Positions 28,701 to 49,514 of a DNA stretch of 64,000 nt are shown in pieces. A program made the translations under genes and the position numbers. The stretch is from Naegleria gruberi (Eukaryota). Positions within the stretch are counted from its first letter, which is position 1; each line of letters opens with the position of its first letter. The stretch is from the NCBI GenBank assembly GCA_000004985.1, contig GG738851.1; one strand, given 5' to 3'. The notes below the pieces were generated by a model that saw only the letters and a program-made list of their open reading frames with translations, did no database searches and was not told the origin of the DNA.

Positions 28701-29524
28701 TTTCTGGAATTACTTTCTCCAATCTATTCTCTGCATCAGTTGTCTTTCTTCCAGTCAATATTACATTCAAAATTTTACAAGCGTATTGAATTGTGTGAAT
28801 TACATTTTCCGATAATGGTTTGTCAGCATATTCGTTTAAAACATATGTACAATATCTTGCCAATACAAGAAGTGTGTATTTAGTGCTGAAAAAGCAAGCA
28901 CTATTTTTTTGAATAACTGGAATAACATGTTTAGTTTCGAAAAAAGCTCACAAACTTACCCTTTTCAATAAACTTTTTGGAATAGAGTTGTCTTACGAAT
29001 GTGTTCAAAACTTGGACCATTACAAAATGTTGGGTTGAAGAAAAACATTTCATTCTCTGTAAAAACTTGCACAATAGTTTCATGATTGATGGAAAATCAT
29101 TGGCATTACTTTCAGAAAGGTACCTTTCCGATGAAACCACTTGCAAAACGAAAGTTTTCAAAAACTTTGTTGTTTCGTACAATTTATCTCATATTTAAAA
29201 CATACCTCTGTTCCTGTTTCTGATTGTAGGACAGTCTTGTCTACAACTACAGATTCTTCAGCCTTTTTAATAGTTAGAAAATTATAGACCAATGAATAAA
29301 ATTGAACTTACAAATAATAGACCCATTCCAAATACATCTGTCTCTTCATCTGTAGCATCAACAACATTTCCCAATTGAATATATTGATCGCTTGTGTCTT
29401 GATTTGAGAGTTGATCAAGTATTTTACTCCTCTCAAAGGATGAATCAATAAAATTATTAAAGAATTCATCCTCCTCTTCAATGTTAGTTTCTTCCGAAGA
29501 GTGATGATTTATTTTCACACTCAT
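16702..29524 (-). CDS. UBR4: UBR4 / p600 / BIG / Pushover-type giant E3 ubiquitin ligase orthologue (about 4229 aa); 4 exons: complement(join(16702..28916,28960..29164,29206..29262,29312..29524))
   Basis: The 12.2-kb main exon aligns with human UBR4 at the beta-propeller-like region (…NDNFLAVAGIYECHVLVLD…IIDIQWLPGEQCLLSVTTNQFVKVYDL vs …DCHVLTFSS…[24 protein letters not shown]). It aligns at the Cys-rich C-terminal E3 module too (CLVCSDPELDF…CDSCGIAVYDKYGLCLSCGENVFSCSNCRGINYDNLDAFICSTCGTCKFA vs CLVCNNPEVPF…CPRCSASV…[36 protein letters not shown]). The same holds for CYGCANNFV and CSVCGDGNSFKPEEVLGTYMFCK…HSSCH…KCNALFPFKGP vs [23 protein letters not shown]…DCHL…KCNGLLPVWGP. The 5' exons start at ATG 29524 (MSVKINHHSSEE…GMGLLF|AEESVVVDKTVLQSETGTE|FLKTF…KKFIEK|…). 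Introns: 29263..29311 (GTAAGT), 29165..29205 (GTATGT). The third is 28917..28959 under GTAAGT…CCAG, or 28901..28948 under GTTTGT…AAATAG. Internal antisense ORFs in the track are spurious. Confidence 0.85.
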
Positions 29525-44542: not shown

Positions 44543-45936
44543 ATGAACACAAACAAGGTGGTTCAAAAAACAAAACAAGCAGCCACACATTCCCCTCCTA
44601 TTATTACTCAACACAACCAACAAGAAATGATCAAGACTTCTTTTCACAATCATCTGCCCTCTGTAACTCCTCACAGTTATGATATTTCTCAATCACCTCC
44701 ACCTCCATCATCAGCATCAATACATGCTTCAGGGATGCACCTTGCTTCTCTTTCTCGCTATGATACATCTTCCGTGCCAGCATCATCATCATTCGACAGA
44801 ACCACTCAACAATACAATTATCATCATGCTGCACAACAACAACAGTCATATGACATGACCATGCAACAACAATATCAGAGGGAACATGTAAATTTGCATC
44901 AGCACAGATATCATCCTTATCAGCAGCGAAACCCCATTAGTCCACCTTCTCCACCACGTAATGCACACAGAGGCGGATTGGAACTCCATAATTGTAATAC
45001 TGATGCTAGTGGCAGTAGTAATGGTGGTACTAGTAGTGGTACAGCACCAATGCATGTGTATTCGAATCCTCCTTCACATTATCATCACCATGTAAATAAT
45101 CAGAATTTTCGAGCATCTCCAACAAGTAATAAGAAAAGTCCAATTTCGAGTGAACAGTATGATACATGTTATGGTCAATCACATGATGTACACTCAACAG
45201 CTCAACAACCACTTGTATCAAACAATAGAAAGAAAATTCCAAACCGATCTTCATATGAAACACATGTATTTATGAATGCTCCTTCCATAATAGCAACTTC
45301 AAATTCAACAACACAACCAACACCTCAAAAGAGAAAGAATGTCATTTCCAAACAAGAAATGATTAAAGTGTTACATCTTCCTCAAACACAGGCTAGTTCA
45401 ATACTTGGATGTAGTTTGTCAACACTTAAAAGAAGATTTTATGAACTGAAAGAAGAATTAGGTAAGTTTTGATTGAATGAAAGTAATCTTATACGATTTG
45501 TTGTATTATGATGAATGCATGCATGACATGGACATCTTGATCAATTTACTTAATTATCAACACATCTATTTGATATTCTTGCTTATTGCTATATGTGATC
45601 AACACATCTATTTGATATTCTTGATTCCTTAATAATTATATGGAATACTTAATGTTCATGCATCAATTATACAACAACATTTAAATTCAATGCGCACGCA
45701 TACATACACATTTAGAAATGGAAAAATGGCCCCAATTCTATCATGAAATAAGACACTTGGCAATATTTTCCAAAGTCTACCCAATGTCCCTCTACTTTAT
45801 GCTCAATCATGAAGGATGTGACGACATGCATAAACCACTCACTAGAAAACACTTGATAAATTCACATGAAACGTATGAACAGTCTTACCAGGAGAATACC
45901 AACCACTTTTTGCAATATTGTAAGACCCACATATAA
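44543..45936 (+). CDS. RWP-RK-domain transcription-factor-like protein; exon 1 44543..45461 is confident; proposed exon 2 45716..45936 is joined by an unusually long 254-nt intron (45462..45715)
   Basis: The N-terminus is Q/H/S/P-rich. The C-terminus of exon 1 (ISKQEMIKVLHLPQTQASSILGCSLSTLKRRFYELKEELG) matches the first half of the RWP-RK domain (…LPI..AA..LGV..T.LKR.CR…). A GTAAGT donor follows at 45462. In-frame splicing to …tttag|AA ATG GAA AAA TGG CCC… gives …LKEEL-E-MEKWPQFYHEIRHL…, supplying a KWP core where RWP-RK is expected. The intron contains a tandem 26-bp repeat. Alternative: 45718..45936 is an independent 72-aa ORF. Confidence 0.55.
45548..45623. repeat. Tandem direct repeat (2 copies of about 26 bp, ATCAACACATCTATTTGATATTCTTG, separated by about 24 bp) inside the putative RWP-RK intron
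   Basis: Copies lie at about 45548..45573 and 45598..45623, exact over about 26 bp. Confidence 0.7.
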
Positions 45937-46133
45937 GTGAAGCCAGATTAGGGCCTTCCTTTAAGAACTGACCAATAAGGCAATGAATTCCATAGACCAA
46001 ACTCACAAATTGGGCCGAGAACAATATGAATCTTTGATTTCCATTCTAACTTCAAGTAGGACCATCAATAGATTCTTTGTGAGGTCATGCACCAATCAGT
46101 AAGCAATACACCCTTAAATGGAACAAATTGATT

Positions 46134-49100
46134 TTATTTAAGCATGTAATAAAATCTAGAACCAACTTGATGAATATATCTCAATTGAGGAATTACTACC
46201 ATTAAGAAAATTCCAACCACTGGAATGATAATGGTCAAGTAGCACATCACCTCAAGAGAAGTAGTGGCCAACAATGTAATGAAAATCTGAGAGGCAGCAC
46301 ATGCAACGCACAAAATACTCGTTCTCATGAGCCAATTCTTGTAATAACTACTTCGCATTATGAGCGCAAACAAGTAGAGAAACAATGTTAATACTTCTCC
46401 AATATAGAGTGGTCCAAAAGTGTAGCCAATACCCTCGAATGAAAATCTAGTGTCTGGATGGTTATTCTCCTTTCCAACATTTTCTTCATTCGCAGTATCT
46501 TGATGATCCAAAAAGGCGGAGAATGCAACCAAAAACCAAACAAGCAAGAAACTCATTGCAGCTCCGTATGCAAGCAAGAAGGGAAAGTTTCGTATAGAGA
46601 TGACCCTTAATTGTCTCTTCATGGCTTCAGTTAAATCGTATGAAATGTATTTTCTGAACAAGTAGACAATACTATCCCAAATTGCAATGACGAATAATAA
46701 TCCTGAAATTATTGCTGCAACAAAATAAATAAAACATGGAATTGCAAAAACTCCAAACCATCCACTCACTTCAAATTGAATCATTAAAAAATCTAAAAGT
46801 GTCAAAATCATGACTGGCACGATGAACATTATTCCAATCAAATGGTAAAAGAATGAATGTGAGGTCAATTTCATTTGCAAACGTTTCATGTAAAAGAGTG
46901 TCTTGTCAGCTCCCGTGAGGCCGATTGAATTTTCCTCATAGAATTCTCTTGCAGGAGAGGGAGGATTGATCCAACTCTTAATCCATGCGAGGCAAAGTTG
47001 GAATTCATCCTCATTTTGTCGGGAGGGGAGTAGAGCTTCTGTATCTGTATTTCTTGGTGAGGTCATGTTATCAGGGTTGGAATGAGATGAACTCAACAAC
47101 TTGTTAATTCTCCTGTACAGAACAAAACTGGTAATCCAAACAGCAGTCCAAGTTGGTAAATAAATTACTAGAGACCAGACCCAAAATATCAAAGATGGTG
47201 TATAGTACATTGTTGAGGAAGAAGCAATAACTGGAATGGTAGTAAATATGTACATGAATAAGAAGGTGGTGGCTACAATGGTGCTAAGCATTTCTGGAAA
47301 GGTATTTCTTAGGAGGAATTTAATATTTTCCTTCTTTTCTGGTTTGTCATTCTCAACTATTTTCAGATTCACCAGTCTTTCGTATTCAAATTGTTGAATC
47401 TTTTTCATTTCAATGAATGTATCCTTGAAGAAGCGATACTTTTTAGAGTGAATGTTCAAATCTTTCAATTCTGGATCTTGTAATGATTTTCCATTTCTCT
47501 TCTTTTTACGTGTATTGGTAATTCTATTAGAAGAGAGGAGGTTGGATGGATCCTCTTCTTCCTCCAAACCATCATCATCGAAAATGTTTCTAATATCAAC
47601 CTTGGTTGACATTCTCTTTTGTTTCTTTCTTCTCTTCTTGGCACTATCAATAATATCTTGATTGATAGTGTGAGGAGATGGAATAACCTCAAATTCATCC
47701 TCTACATCTTGATTTTCAGCCAAAGGAGTGGTGGGTACAGCCTCACCAGGTGGTGTAACGGTATTTTGAGGTGCTTCCAATAATTGATTCTCTCCCTCTT
47801 CAGCAATATTGAAATCATCAGGTGGAGAATCTGTACTTTCCTTAATATCGTGACCGAGGAGAGTGTTCGATATTTTGTTTTGTGAAATGTGATGTTCCAA
47901 TTTTTCTGTCAGCGTGTCTGTGGTAGCAGTAATTTTTCTATCGATGGAATTCATAGTGGCCTTTACTGTATTTCTTACAGCACCAGCCCTCTTAGAAATA
48001 GCAGAGGTAAGTTTGGAGCTGAATTGATTGAGATGCTCCAGAGAAAATTGCTTATTGTTAGCCTGAACGACAGCGTCCATAAAAGTATCCTTATCTGGAA
48101 GTAAATAGTCACATAATACTTGAAGCTTCTTACGAATTTCCTCACGTCTTTGTGGTGAAGTGTAGTATGAGGATATCAACTTGTTCAGATCATTCTTATC
48201 AAAAGCTCTAAAGCTCACTGAAAATCTACTCAGATGGAGAAAGAGCATAATAGTTGCCAAGCTCCACATGTCATTATTACAAGAGGCAATGTGCCACTTT
48301 TTACATACTAGACTGATGTTTGCATTTCCTTGGTGAATCCAAATGTGTCTTCTCTTGGCATGATTTACCATAAACCTCTCACATCTATTCTTTAACTTGA
48401 TTTGCTCTTTAATCTTTTGCTTTTCCTTCTTTTTCTGTTCCTTTGAATAGTTGAGAACTTTTTTGGCTCCTTGTTTCACTGTATTGGCAGTAGAATCCTC
48501 CAATAAAATAGAAGAGTCATCCTTAGATTGACCAGAATCTGAGAAATTTTTAGAGAGAAGCAAGGAAATTGAGGGAACTGAAATACTTCTCTTTAGATTT
48601 TTAATTCTCTCAGTTGCACTCCCTACAATCCTATCAGTGTCCACAAACTTTTTATGTCCTAATCCAGCACTCAACCAATCAGAGGTTAATCCGTCATCCT
48701 CTTCAATTTCAAATTCTGAATAATACTTTTTACTATTCCTATTTTCACTTGAATTTTTTCTTTTAGGTATTGTCGGAGTTGTCAAGCTGCCACTCTTAGA
48801 CCCTTCCATCACTAAATCCTCCAATGAATGTGGAGCATTTCGTAACTTATTCCTAGCAGTATTGAGTGCAACCTCTGGATCCTCATCAAACTCCTCATCA
48901 TCCGATTCGGAATCCTCTTGTTCCTCCTTTTCATTTAATTGGTCACACAAGAATGAAAATATATGTGTCAATAATTTAACACTAAGATTATTGATATGTG
49001 GCATGTGTTCTGACAGATCCTTACTACTATCTTGTCTAATTTTGTTCAATTTTTTAACTCCAATCATTGGTATTTGAATGTGTGAAGATTCATAAACAGA

Positions 49101-49514
49101 GGAGGTTCCTATTGATGATGGGTGCTCCTCAATAATAATTTCCTCCGAGTGCATTTGTTGTTGCTGATGATTAATCCTTCCATTCGTTTGATTAGGATAA
49201 ATGAGTGTTGGTCTTGATCGAGCAGTAATTGGTGAAGAGAAAGGAATAGCATACGGATTATAATTACCAACCAATTCCTTCTCATCCATTGGTGTATCAA
49301 CCCAACCAATCTCCACTTGTTCATTCACTCCTCTAGAAGCACCACTAGAATTATTCAAACTGTTCGTACTACTTCCATTCCCTGTAAAGTTATTGTTAGA
49401 TAATTGAAGATGAGGAGGATATTTCTTTTTAATATTGAGAGTAAGTATTTGATCCTCTCCAACACCACTACCACCACTATTATTACTAGTTGTTGTATGA
49501 TGATTTTGTTCCAT
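46134..49514 (-). CDS. Large polytopic membrane protein (1126 aa; Asn/Ser/Glu-rich N-terminal half; C-terminal about 450 aa with about 10 predicted TM helices); function unknown
   Basis: Single exon from ATG 49514 (MEQNHHTTTSNNSGGSGVG…). The middle has acidic clusters, a leucine-rich segment (LSVKLLTHIFSFLCDQL) and K/R-rich stretches. Hydrophobic helices include IVATTFLFMYIFTTIPVIASS, LIFWVWSLVIYLPTWTAVWITSFVLY, FYHLIGIMFIVPVMILTLLDFLMI, GWFGVFAIPCFIYFVAAIISGLLFVIAIW, FPFLLAYGAAMSFLLVWFLVAFSAF, VLTLFLYLFALIM, ILCVACAASQIFITLLATT and LTIIIPVVGIFLMVVIP. Confidence 0.7.
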   Translation of the reverse strand: MEQNHHTTTSNNSGGSGVGEDQILTLNIKKKYPPHLQLSNNNFTGNGSSTNSLNNSSGASRGVNEQVEIGWVDTPMDEKELVGNYNPYAIPFSSPITARSRPTLIYPNQTNGRINHQQQQMHSEEIIIEEHPSSIGTSSVYESSHIQIPMIGVKKLNKIRQDSSKDLSEHMPHINNLSVKLLTHIFSFLCDQLNEKEEQEDSESDDEEFDEDPEVALNTARNKLRNAPHSLEDLVMEGSKSGSLTTPTIPKRKNSSENRNSKKYYSEFEIEEDDGLTSDWLSAGLGHKKFVDTDRIVGSATERIKNLKRSISVPSISLLLSKNFSDSGQSKDDSSILLEDSTANTVKQGAKKVLNYSKEQKKKEKQKIKEQIKLKNRCERFMVNHAKRRHIWIHQGNANISLVCKKWHIASCNNDMWSLATIMLFLHLSRFSVSFRAFDKNDLNKLISSYYTSPQRREEIRKKLQVLCDYLLPDKDTFMDAVVQANNKQFSLEHLNQFSSKLTSAISKRAGAVRNTVKATMNSIDRKITATTDTLTEKLEHHISQNKISNTLLGHDIKESTDSPPDDFNIAEEGENQLLEAPQNTVTPPGEAVPTTPLAENQDVEDEFEVIPSPHTINQDIIDSAKKRRKKQKRMSTKVDIRNIFDDDGLEEEEDPSNLLSSNRITNTRKKKRNGKSLQDPELKDLNIHSKKYRFFKDTFIEMKKIQQFEYERLVNLKIVENDKPEKKENIKFLLRNTFPEMLSTIVATTFLFMYIFTTIPVIASSSTMYYTPSLIFWVWSLVIYLPTWTAVWITSFVLYRRINKLLSSSHSNPDNMTSPRNTDTEALLPSRQNEDEFQLCLAWIKSWINPPSPAREFYEENSIGLTGADKTLFYMKRLQMKLTSHSFFYHLIGIMFIVPVMILTLLDFLMIQFEVSGWFGVFAIPCFIYFVAAIISGLLFVIAIWDSIVYLFRKYISYDLTEAMKRQLRVISIRNFPFLLAYGAAMSFLLVWFLVAFSAFLDHQDTANEENVGKENNHPDTRFSFEGIGYTFGPLYIGEVLTLFLYLFALIMRSSYYKNWLMRTSILCVACAASQIFITLLATTSLEVMCYLTIIIPVVGIFLMVVIPQLRYIHQVGSRFYYMLK

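What the first reader, a model, noticed from the sequence alone, without database searches (positions are those of the whole stretch)
44543..45936. RWP-RK transcription-factor-like gene split by an atypically long, repeat-containing intron
The ORF ends with the first half of an RWP-RK domain (VLHLPQTQASSILGCSLSTLKRRFYELKEELG), immediately followed by a GTAAGT donor. The only in-frame way to complete the domain is a 254-nt intron, 3–5 times the local norm. The intron holds a tandem 26-bp direct repeat and joins to an exon beginning MEKWPQFYHEIRHL (KWP in place of RWP). RWP-RK factors control gamete and nitrogen programmes in plants and algae and are expanded in some amoebae. Finding one here helps place the organism and flags a regulator with an unusual, possibly insertion-expanded intron.
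Basis: partly seen in the sequence, partly recalled or inferred. Interest (0 to 1): 0.5.

Follow-up and report, generated by a model that had tools for sequence, protein, structure and literature searches.

The report
Two-exon Naegleria RWP-RK gene, mis-annotated
This is an ordinary member of the large RWP-RK transcription-factor family of the amoeboflagellate Naegleria gruberi.

Summary
The window is Naegleria gruberi. The ORF 44543..45472 is the public 309-aa 'predicted protein' XP_002681131.1. That model reads into an intron and stops three codons past the donor (…GKF*).

It joins the helix-turn-helix half of an RWP-RK domain to 45716..45936.

Exon 2 is the only place in the window that matches the C-terminal half of the domain in six Naegleria homologues (E 1e-8 to 4e-12). 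The spliced sequence aligns without gaps across the junction. Against a syntenic orthologue, exon 2 shows dN/dS of about 0.17.

The Pfam RWP-RK score rises from 20.7 to 25.4 bits on splicing (28.9 for the domain alone; cut-off 29.3). The motif is KWPQFY, not RWPxRK.

The intron is about 5 times the local median (47 nt, 13 candidate introns), but the published genome mean is 203 nt. The repeat is two 26-nt exact copies 42 nt apart, not strictly tandem. No other copy was found.

No other homologue examined has an intron at this site, including the syntenic orthologue, so it may be lineage-specific.

RWP-RK is already known as the third-largest transcription-factor family in Naegleria (39 genes counted). 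The result is a small annotation correction of low interest.

The parts
44543..45461 (+). Exon 1 (919 nt, 306 codons plus 1 nt). It encodes a Q/H/S/N-rich low-complexity N-terminal region, a basic PQKRKN stretch, and the three-helix HTH half of the RWP-RK domain (coded from about 45344).
   Evidence: 100% identical to the N. gruberi protein XP_002681131.1 / NAEGRDRAFT_46635. Pfam PF02042 matches residues 268-300. The AlphaFold model places helices at model residues 11-17, 22-29 and 33-47 with pLDDT 96-97.
45462..45715 (+). Spliceosomal intron, 254 nt, phase 1, GTAAGTTT...ATTTAG, GC 27.6% against 36-38% in the exons.
   Evidence: It is the unique in-frame GT-AG join. Its donor is identical to the commonest local donor, GTAAGTTT. 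The spliced CDS aligns without gaps to homologues across the junction. No Rfam match and no excess RNA structure, z = +0.33. No other copy in the window.
45556..45584 (+). Direct repeat, copy 1 (ATCAACACATCTATTTGATATTCTTGCTT).
   Evidence: the repeat finder family D1. The exact 26-mer occurs twice in the window and nowhere else; two matches arose in 0 of 100 shuffles.
45598..45626 (+). Direct repeat, copy 2 (ATCAACACATCTATTTGATATTCTTGATT), starting 42 nt after copy 1.
   Evidence: The sequences following the two copies do not align, so this is a 29-nt duplication rather than a 42-nt tandem unit.
45716..45936 (+). Exon 2 (221 nt including the stop codon at 45934-45936). It encodes the WP loop (KWPQFY), the conserved IRHLxIFxKVYPMSLYFMLN segment and a C-terminal helix (...HFLQYCKTHI*).
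   Evidence: It is the only tblastn hit in the window for the C-terminal halves of six homologues. phmmer against 1.8 billion representatives gives a best hit to orthologue P0014 at E 1.4e-23. Against L005, pN is 0.23, pS 0.66 and dN/dS about 0.17. pLDDT is 87-92 for the first 20 residues and 81-93 for the terminal helix.
46134..49514 (-). Convergent neighbouring gene (1126-aa membrane protein). It is not part of the feature, but it bounds it, with 197 nt between the two stop codons.
   Evidence: Its C-terminus ...IPQLRYIHQVGSRFYYMLK* and its stop position are conserved in the syntenic contig L005 (...IPQLHYIHQVGSRFYYLLK*). It therefore does not extend into 45712-46133.

Best explanation
This is a two-exon nuclear gene of Naegleria gruberi. 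It encodes a 379-aa transcription factor of the heterolobosean branch of the RWP-RK family.

Exon 1 (44543-45461) encodes a low-complexity, probably regulatory N-terminal region and a three-helix helix-turn-helix. Its third helix (STLKRRFYELKEEL) ends exactly at the exon boundary. A canonical GT-AG intron of 254 nt must be removed to add exon 2 (45716-45936). Exon 2 supplies the invariant Trp-Pro loop, a conserved hydrophobic segment (YPMSLYFMLN) predicted to pack on the HTH, and a C-terminal helix.

The protein most likely binds DNA through the HTH, as plant and algal RWP-RK factors do. Unspliced mRNA would give the truncated 309-aa product that the public annotation records. That product is most likely an annotation artefact rather than a real isoform.

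Shown here: the sequence features, the homology of both halves, the unique in-frame join, and purifying selection on exon 2.

Inferred: actual splicing, DNA binding and any biological role.
For: - Identity of organism and gene: 100% to the N. gruberi 'predicted protein'; accessions.
- Homologues continue through the junction with the sequence of exon 2: (gapless 8-sequence alignment; W50 and P51 invariant).
- Only one matching place in the window.
- Pfam RWP-RK: 20.7 bits unspliced, 25.4 spliced, 28.9 for the domain alone, against a cut-off of 29.3. All 8 aligned relatives hit PF02042 at E <= 0.01.
- Most of the 79 profile hits carry precomputed PF02042.
- Syntenic orthologue L005 has the same convergent neighbour at 77% nucleotide identity. 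Its coding sequence is continuous where N. gruberi has the intron, and it aligns gaplessly to the spliced sequence.
- Exon 2 has dN/dS of about 0.17, with the same pN as the exon-1 part of the domain.
- The donor GTAAGTTT equals the commonest local donor.
- AlphaFold model of the spliced domain: mean pLDDT 85.9, with an HTH followed by ordered exon-2 elements.
- A profile of the family hits Fis/NtrC-type HTH structures in the PDB, E 0.006.
Against: - No transcript evidence could be examined.
- PF02042 stays 0.4-4 bits below Pfam's gathering score.
- The name-giving RWPxRK motif reads KWPQFY.
- The junction residue is Glu, where most relatives have Gly (one has Gln).
- The intron is about 5 times the median of the other candidate introns in the window.
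Confidence: 0.9

Rival explanations
1. The public model is right. The 254-nt segment is an insertion that disrupted the gene. The gene now ends at 45472 (…GKF*), giving an HTH-only protein or a pseudogene, and 45718-45936 is a decaying relic.
For: The annotated protein is exactly this ORF. No other homologue examined has an intron at this site. The segment contains a young-looking exact 26-nt duplication.
Against: The boundaries are a perfect GTAAGT...TTTAG pair placed so that removal restores the frame and a gapless alignment. Exon 2 stays open for 72 codons in 36% GC DNA. It shows pN 0.23 against pS 0.66 relative to the orthologue, the same constraint as exon 1.
Confidence: 0.06
2. The stretch 45712-46133 belongs to the convergent minus-strand gene, as extra 3' exons reached through small introns. 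The antisense ORFs are 45842..46024 and 45712..45852, with GTAAGA and TTCTAG-like sites. On this view the apparent plus-strand exon 2 is only antisense to real coding sequence.
For: Open antisense frames and plausible splice-like sites are visible. This was my own first suspicion.
Against: The minus-strand protein ends at the same residue, with the same last 19 residues apart from two changes, in the syntenic contig L005, and a non-conserved spacer follows. The plus-strand reading of 45718-45822 matches six homologues.
Confidence: 0.01
3. On the origin of the intron: it is a footprint of a mobile or 'introner'-like element that inserted recently. This differs from an old intron that was lost elsewhere or lengthened by slippage.
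For: The intron appears to be lineage-restricted. It is unusually long for the neighbourhood. TTAG occurs both before the donor and at the intron's 3' end.
Against: There is no second copy of the intron or of the 26-mer in the 64-kb window, and none in JGI metagenome contigs. No terminal inverted repeats were found. Two of the four TTAG bases are forced by the AG requirement. There is no similarity to the flanking exons beyond shuffled controls.
Confidence: 0.1

Closest known systems
Naegleria RWP-RK transcription-factor family (Pfam PF02042). The Naegleria fowleri genome paper counts 39 in N. gruberi and 26-27 in N. fowleri (PMC8296547, Additional file 5, Table S3).
   Same: The same organism and the same domain. 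The signature is the same as in the paralogues P0015, P0017 and P0020 (N. gruberi) and in the N. fowleri and N. lovaniensis proteins: VLHLxQxQAxxxLxCSLSTLKRRFYELKxxxG-x-x-[KR]WPQ...YPMSLxFILN.
   Different: This member is longer (379 aa, against 120-150 aa for most paralogues). It has a 250-aa low-complexity N-terminus. It carries an intron at a site not seen in the others, and its public model is truncated and has no Pfam hit. The locus has no counterpart at the syntenic place in N. lovaniensis.
Plant and algal RWP-RK factors (NIN/NLP and RKD proteins; Chlamydomonas MID and NIT2). Named from general knowledge of the family.
   Same: The HTH core and the invariant Trp-Pro match the Pfam profile built largely on these proteins, at E 1e-6 for the domain alone.
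   Different: The motif is KWPQFY instead of RWPxRK. Four residues (KEEL) are inserted between the third helix and the WP motif relative to other heterolobosean members such as those of Acrasis. There is no PB1 or GAF-like domain. A role in nitrogen or gamete programmes is not implied by anything tested here.
Fis/NtrC-type helix-turn-helix (Pfam HTH_8; PDB 4l5e and 4l4u)
   Same: The family profile aligns to the C-terminal DNA-binding HTH of an NtrC-family regulator, E 0.006. One family member also hits HTH_8. Foldseek's best PDB matches are all small HTH DNA-binding domains.
   Different: All these matches are weak (Foldseek E > 0.2). The WP loop and the YPMSLxFILN extension have no counterpart in them.

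Membership tests
RWP-RK domain family (Pfam PF02042) | Score at or above Pfam's gathering threshold (29.3 bits) | tested here: inconclusive
   Scores are 20.7 bits unspliced, 25.4 bits for the spliced full-length protein and 28.9 bits (E 1e-6) for the 87-aa domain alone. The match is significant but 0.4-4 bits under the cut-off. All 8 aligned relatives hit at E <= 0.01, with a best E of 1e-10.
RWP-RK domain family (Pfam PF02042) | The RWPxRK motif | tested here: not met
   The sequence reads KWPQFY. Across the Naegleria subfamily only W and P are invariant. The preceding residue is K, R, T, S or C, and the 'RK' is absent.
RWP-RK domain family (Pfam PF02042) | Unbroken chain of sequence homology to proteins that do pass PF02042 | tested here: met
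   A profile of the subfamily retrieves 79 proteins, most with precomputed PF02042. They include Acrasis kona proteins with a canonical-looking GRWPSKK.
RWP-RK domain family (Pfam PF02042) | Helix-turn-helix fold followed by the WP segment | tested here: met
   The AlphaFold2 model has mean pLDDT 85.9, with helices at 11-17, 22-29 and 33-47 and WP at 52-53 with pLDDT above 90. This is a prediction only. No solved RWP-RK structure was found.
RWP-RK domain family (Pfam PF02042) | Sequence-specific DNA binding or transcriptional regulation | not testable with these tools
   Needs EMSA, DAP-seq or genetics.
Spliceosomal (U2-type GT-AG) intron | GT...AG boundaries with the local donor consensus, frame restored on removal, stop codons inside | tested here: met
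   The boundaries are GTAAGTTT...TTTAG. Read-through stops after three codons. The join is the unique in-frame one and gives a gapless alignment to homologues.
Spliceosomal (U2-type GT-AG) intron | Observed removal from the mRNA | not testable with these tools
   No transcript data are available here. RNA-seq for N. gruberi exists as PRJEB23822 (PMC6142364).
Introner or mobile-element-derived intron | Multiple near-identical copies in the genome; terminal repeats or a target-site duplication | tested here: not met
   There is no other copy in the 64-kb window or in JGI metagenome contigs, and no inverted terminal repeats. The rest of the N. gruberi genome was not available, so the test is incomplete.

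The most novel reading that the evidence does not exclude
The 254-nt intron is a recent gain, specific to the N. gruberi lineage, in a young and locally restricted member of an expanding transcription-factor family. It is absent from the syntenic orthologue and from every paralogue examined. Other members carry introns at two different nearby sites, which points to repeated independent intron gain within one 50-codon domain. The exact 26-nt internal duplication shows that the intron is still growing. This would be a datable example of intron birth in Heterolobosea.
Probability: 0.35. Interest if true: 0.4.

Novelty: new member of a known kind. Interest (0 to 1): 0.22.

Why it matters
The practical value is small. 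The public model for NAEGRDRAFT_46635 (XP_002681131.1, UniProt D2V4I0) is truncated in the middle of its DNA-binding domain and carries no domain annotation. The corrected 379-aa product therefore adds one member to the catalogue of Naegleria RWP-RK factors. A gene of that family was reported as up-regulated in mouse-passaged, highly pathogenic N. fowleri and was suggested as a drug-target class absent from humans (PMC8296547).

The case also shows how gene callers lose second exons behind unusually long introns in a short-intron genome.

The possible lineage-specific intron gain is a minor evolutionary curiosity. Nothing here changes the current understanding of RWP-RK proteins or of splicing.

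Tried and rejected
1. Extra 3' exons of the minus-strand neighbour through 45712-46133. This was suggested by antisense ORFs and splice-like sites. It is rejected because the neighbour's stop and C-terminus are conserved in L005.
2. An intron-hosted small RNA. Rfam found no match at E <= 1 and there is no excess folding, z = +0.33. A UGAUGA C-box-like motif is present, but there is no CUGA D box by eye.
3. An intron born by duplication of the flanking exon. Local alignment scores against 400 nt on either side are no better than shuffles.
4. Other copies of the 26-mer. There are none in the window and none in JGI metagenome contigs.
5. More orthologue loci from metagenomes with an exon-2 profile. 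None were confirmed.
6. P0101 (loci L008-L010), a 94-aa ORF resembling the exon-2 tail at E 5.8e-4. The contig has no RWP-RK half upstream and no DNA similarity to the window, so I treated it as a chance match.
7. P0089, a 1959-aa repeat translation hitting exon 2. This is a spurious match to repetitive sequence.
8. Using N. lovaniensis as a certainly genomic outgroup at the syntenic place. The orthologue of the neighbour gene exists (P0102, 51% identity), but the gene convergent to it is unrelated and no RWP-RK sequence lies within 8 kb.
9. Whether this gene is among the 39 N. gruberi RWP-RK genes counted in PMC8296547. The per-protein table as held does not contain N. gruberi sequences, and known paralogues are absent from it too, so this could not be decided.
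10. Fold comparison with AFDB. That library was unavailable. The PDB Foldseek search gave only weak generic HTH matches.

Full report
**What is in the sequence.** The window is AT-rich (about 33% GC) and comes from Naegleria gruberi. The ORF 44543..45472 is 100% identical to the 309-aa 'predicted protein' XP_002681131.1 / EFC48387.1 / D2V4I0 / NAEGRDRAFT_46635. The ORF ends ...VLHLPQTQASSILGCSLSTLKRRFYELKEELGKF*. GTAAGT begins at 45462, inside the Gly codon.

Exon 1 up to 45461 is 919 nt, which gives phase 1. The downstream frame is open from 45685, and the only AG ahead of its conserved part is at 45714-45715. The junction codon becomes G|AA, which is Glu. The product is 379 aa and reads ...KEELEMEKWPQFYHEIRHLAIFSKVYPMSLYFMLNHEGCDD...HFLQYCKTHI*.

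**Is exon 2 real?** Homologues answer this.
- A search with the spliced product found proteins from N. fowleri, N. lovaniensis, Willaertia magna and metagenomes. After ...LKRRFYELKxxxG they continue with [ILM]x[KR]WP, and the six Naegleria-type proteins then read ...WPQFYxxI[KR]HLxxFPxxYPMSLxF[IV][LM]N. An 8-sequence alignment runs across the junction without a gap, and Trp-Pro is invariant.
- tblastn of the post-junction halves of six homologues against the entire window hits only 45718-45822 on the + strand, at E 1e-8 to 4e-12.
- phmmer of exon 2 alone against 1.8 billion representatives finds 21 relatives. The best is P0014 at E 1.4e-23.

**A syntenic orthologue.** P0014 lies on a 1443-nt ENA contig (L005) that also carries the convergent neighbour. 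The last 271 residues of the neighbour match the window's 1126-aa minus-strand protein at 77% nucleotide identity over 817 nt with no gaps. The C-terminus and stop are the same...IPQLHYIHQVGSRFYYLLK* in L005 against ...IPQLRYIHQVGSRFYYMLK* here.

This has three consequences.
- It disposes of my own early suspicion that 45712-46133 holds extra 3' exons of the minus-strand gene.
- It lets exon 2 be tested for constraint. Over 69 codons, pN is 0.23 and pS is 0.66, so dN/dS is about 0.17. That is the same non-synonymous divergence as the exon-1 part of the domain. Exon 2 is a protein-coding exon on the + strand.
- L005 reads straight through the junction (gaa ttt gga tta gaa agg tgg cca), and the spliced N. 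gruberi sequence aligns to it without a gap.

**Family membership.**
- Pfam PF02042 (RWP-RK) gives 20.7 bits for the annotated ORF (profile positions 2-34 of 49), 25.4 bits for the spliced protein (positions 2-43) and 28.9 bits (E 1e-6) for the 87-aa domain alone. The gathering score is 29.3.
- All eight aligned relatives hit PF02042.
- A profile of the subfamily retrieves 79 proteins. Most carry precomputed PF02042, and they include many from the heterolobosean Acrasis kona.
- The eponymous motif is not kept. This protein has KWPQFY, and across the subfamily only W and P are invariant.
- Relative to the Acrasis-type members, the Naegleria group has a four-residue insertion between helix 3 and the WP motif. 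This explains the sub-threshold score.
- An AlphaFold2 model of the spliced domain plus tail (44-sequence alignment, mean pLDDT 85.9) gives a three-helix HTH. Its third helix ends exactly at the exon junction. An ordered WP loop follows, then two short helices over YPMSLYFMLN, a low-confidence linker, and a long C-terminal helix.
- The PDB holds no close structure. A family profile touches the Fis/NtrC-type HTH (E 0.006), and Foldseek gives only weak generic HTH matches.

I therefore file this gene as a divergent member of the RWP-RK family by homology, noting that the motif test fails.

**The intron.**
- Its donor, GTAAGTTT, is the commonest donor among 13 other candidate introns that join long ORFs in this window. 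Those are 39-95 nt with a median of 47.
- The published mean for N. gruberi is 203 bp (PMC8296547 Table 2), so it is not remarkable genome-wide.
- The repeat consists of two copies, 26 nt exact and 29 nt with one mismatch, at 45556 and 45598. They start 42 nt apart. What follows the two copies does not align, so this is a 29-nt duplication and not a tandem array.
- Several tests were negative. The intron has no other copy in the window and no match in JGI metagenome contigs. It has no Rfam match and no excess RNA structure. It has no inverted termini and no similarity to the flanking exons beyond shuffles.

**Intron distribution in the family.**
- Genomic N. lovaniensis loci show a 67-nt intron 34 codons upstream (LK|CS) in P0004. 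P0003 has a 99-nt intron inside the Arg codon of RWP, 10 nt downstream of the site used here.
- P0005, P0006, P0017 (a paralogue identical to the N. gruberi protein, on a 5-kb multi-gene contig), P0014 and L011 are all continuous across this site.
- The intron at this exact position is therefore unique so far. That fits a lineage-specific gain.
- Two caveats apply. I could not establish whether L005 is DNA- or RNA-derived. Prokaryote-style gene callers on metagenomes also under-report intron-split homologues.
- N. lovaniensis has no RWP-RK gene at the syntenic place, so the locus itself is young or mobile.

**Context and verdict.** RWP-RK is already documented as the third-largest transcription-factor family in Naegleria, with 39 genes in N. 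gruberi and 26-27 in N. fowleri. One member was noted as up-regulated in mouse-passaged N. fowleri (PMC8296547).

The finding is a correct piece of manual gene-structure inference. It repairs one truncated public model and adds a member to a known family.

The most novel reading left open is a recent intron gain, at a probability of about 0.35. It needs the full genome, a close relative's genomic sequence and RNA-seq junctions to settle.

Noticed in passing
window 44543..45472 (public model XP_002681131.1 / NAEGRDRAFT_46635): The public N. gruberi gene model stops inside the intron (…GKF*) and has no Pfam annotation. The corrected product is 379 aa. Other long-intron genes in this short-intron genome may be truncated in the same way.
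   Followed up: yes
window 29311..29057 (minus strand): This is a second candidate long intron (255 nt, GTAAGTTC...TTTTTACAG). It would join the open frames 29854-29285 and 29188-28934 upstream of the giant ORF 28947-16705. It has no sequence similarity to the 254-nt intron, and smaller alternative splice paths were not excluded.
   Followed up: partly
P0069 (Legionella maioricensis, 145 aa): A bacterial protein annotated as RWP-RK domain-containing carries the same ...LGVSISTLKRRFYECKLGRW core as the heterolobosean proteins. This looks like acquisition of a eukaryotic (amoeba-host) transcription-factor domain by a Legionella species.
   Followed up: no
one search hit list (JGI metagenome proteins P0039, P0045, P0063, P0079, P0086): Many small (75-150 aa) PF02042-positive metagenome proteins are labelled by the source as 'NtrC family response regulator', 'Fis', 'YiaG' or 'UPF0251'. 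Some sit on contigs of 180-365 kb. Their organisms of origin are unknown.
   Followed up: no
L005 1..35: The ENA metagenome contig carrying the orthologue begins with an untrimmed Illumina TruSeq adapter (TGTGACTGGAGTTCAGACGTGTGCTCTTCCGATCT). Its 5' end is therefore artificial and the upstream part of the orthologous gene is missing.
   Followed up: partly
L002 3388-5058 and 6001-6942 (N. lovaniensis PYSW02000034.1): Two RWP-RK genes (P0007, 556 aa; P0003, 280 aa) lie in tandem on the same strand about 1 kb apart. This is evidence of local duplication in the family. P0022 begins exactly after the LK|CS intron site of P0004, so that intron appears conserved in another species.
   Followed up: partly
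L012 8001-10367 (N. lovaniensis PYSW02000020.1) against window 45716-49514: The N. lovaniensis orthologue of the convergent membrane-protein gene is annotated as only 419 aa, against 1126 aa here, with a separate 755-aa gene immediately upstream. This is a possible split model. Its convergent partner is an unrelated 338-aa gene, so the RWP-RK gene is not at this locus in N. lovaniensis.
   Followed up: partly
window 46134..49514 (minus strand): The 1126-aa neighbour has weak F-box-like matches (residues 399-418, E about 0.3) ahead of a multi-pass membrane C-terminal half. The only homologue found in 5.8 billion proteins at E <= 1e-5 was the N. lovaniensis protein, so it appears to be a Naegleria-restricted protein of unknown function.
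   Followed up: no
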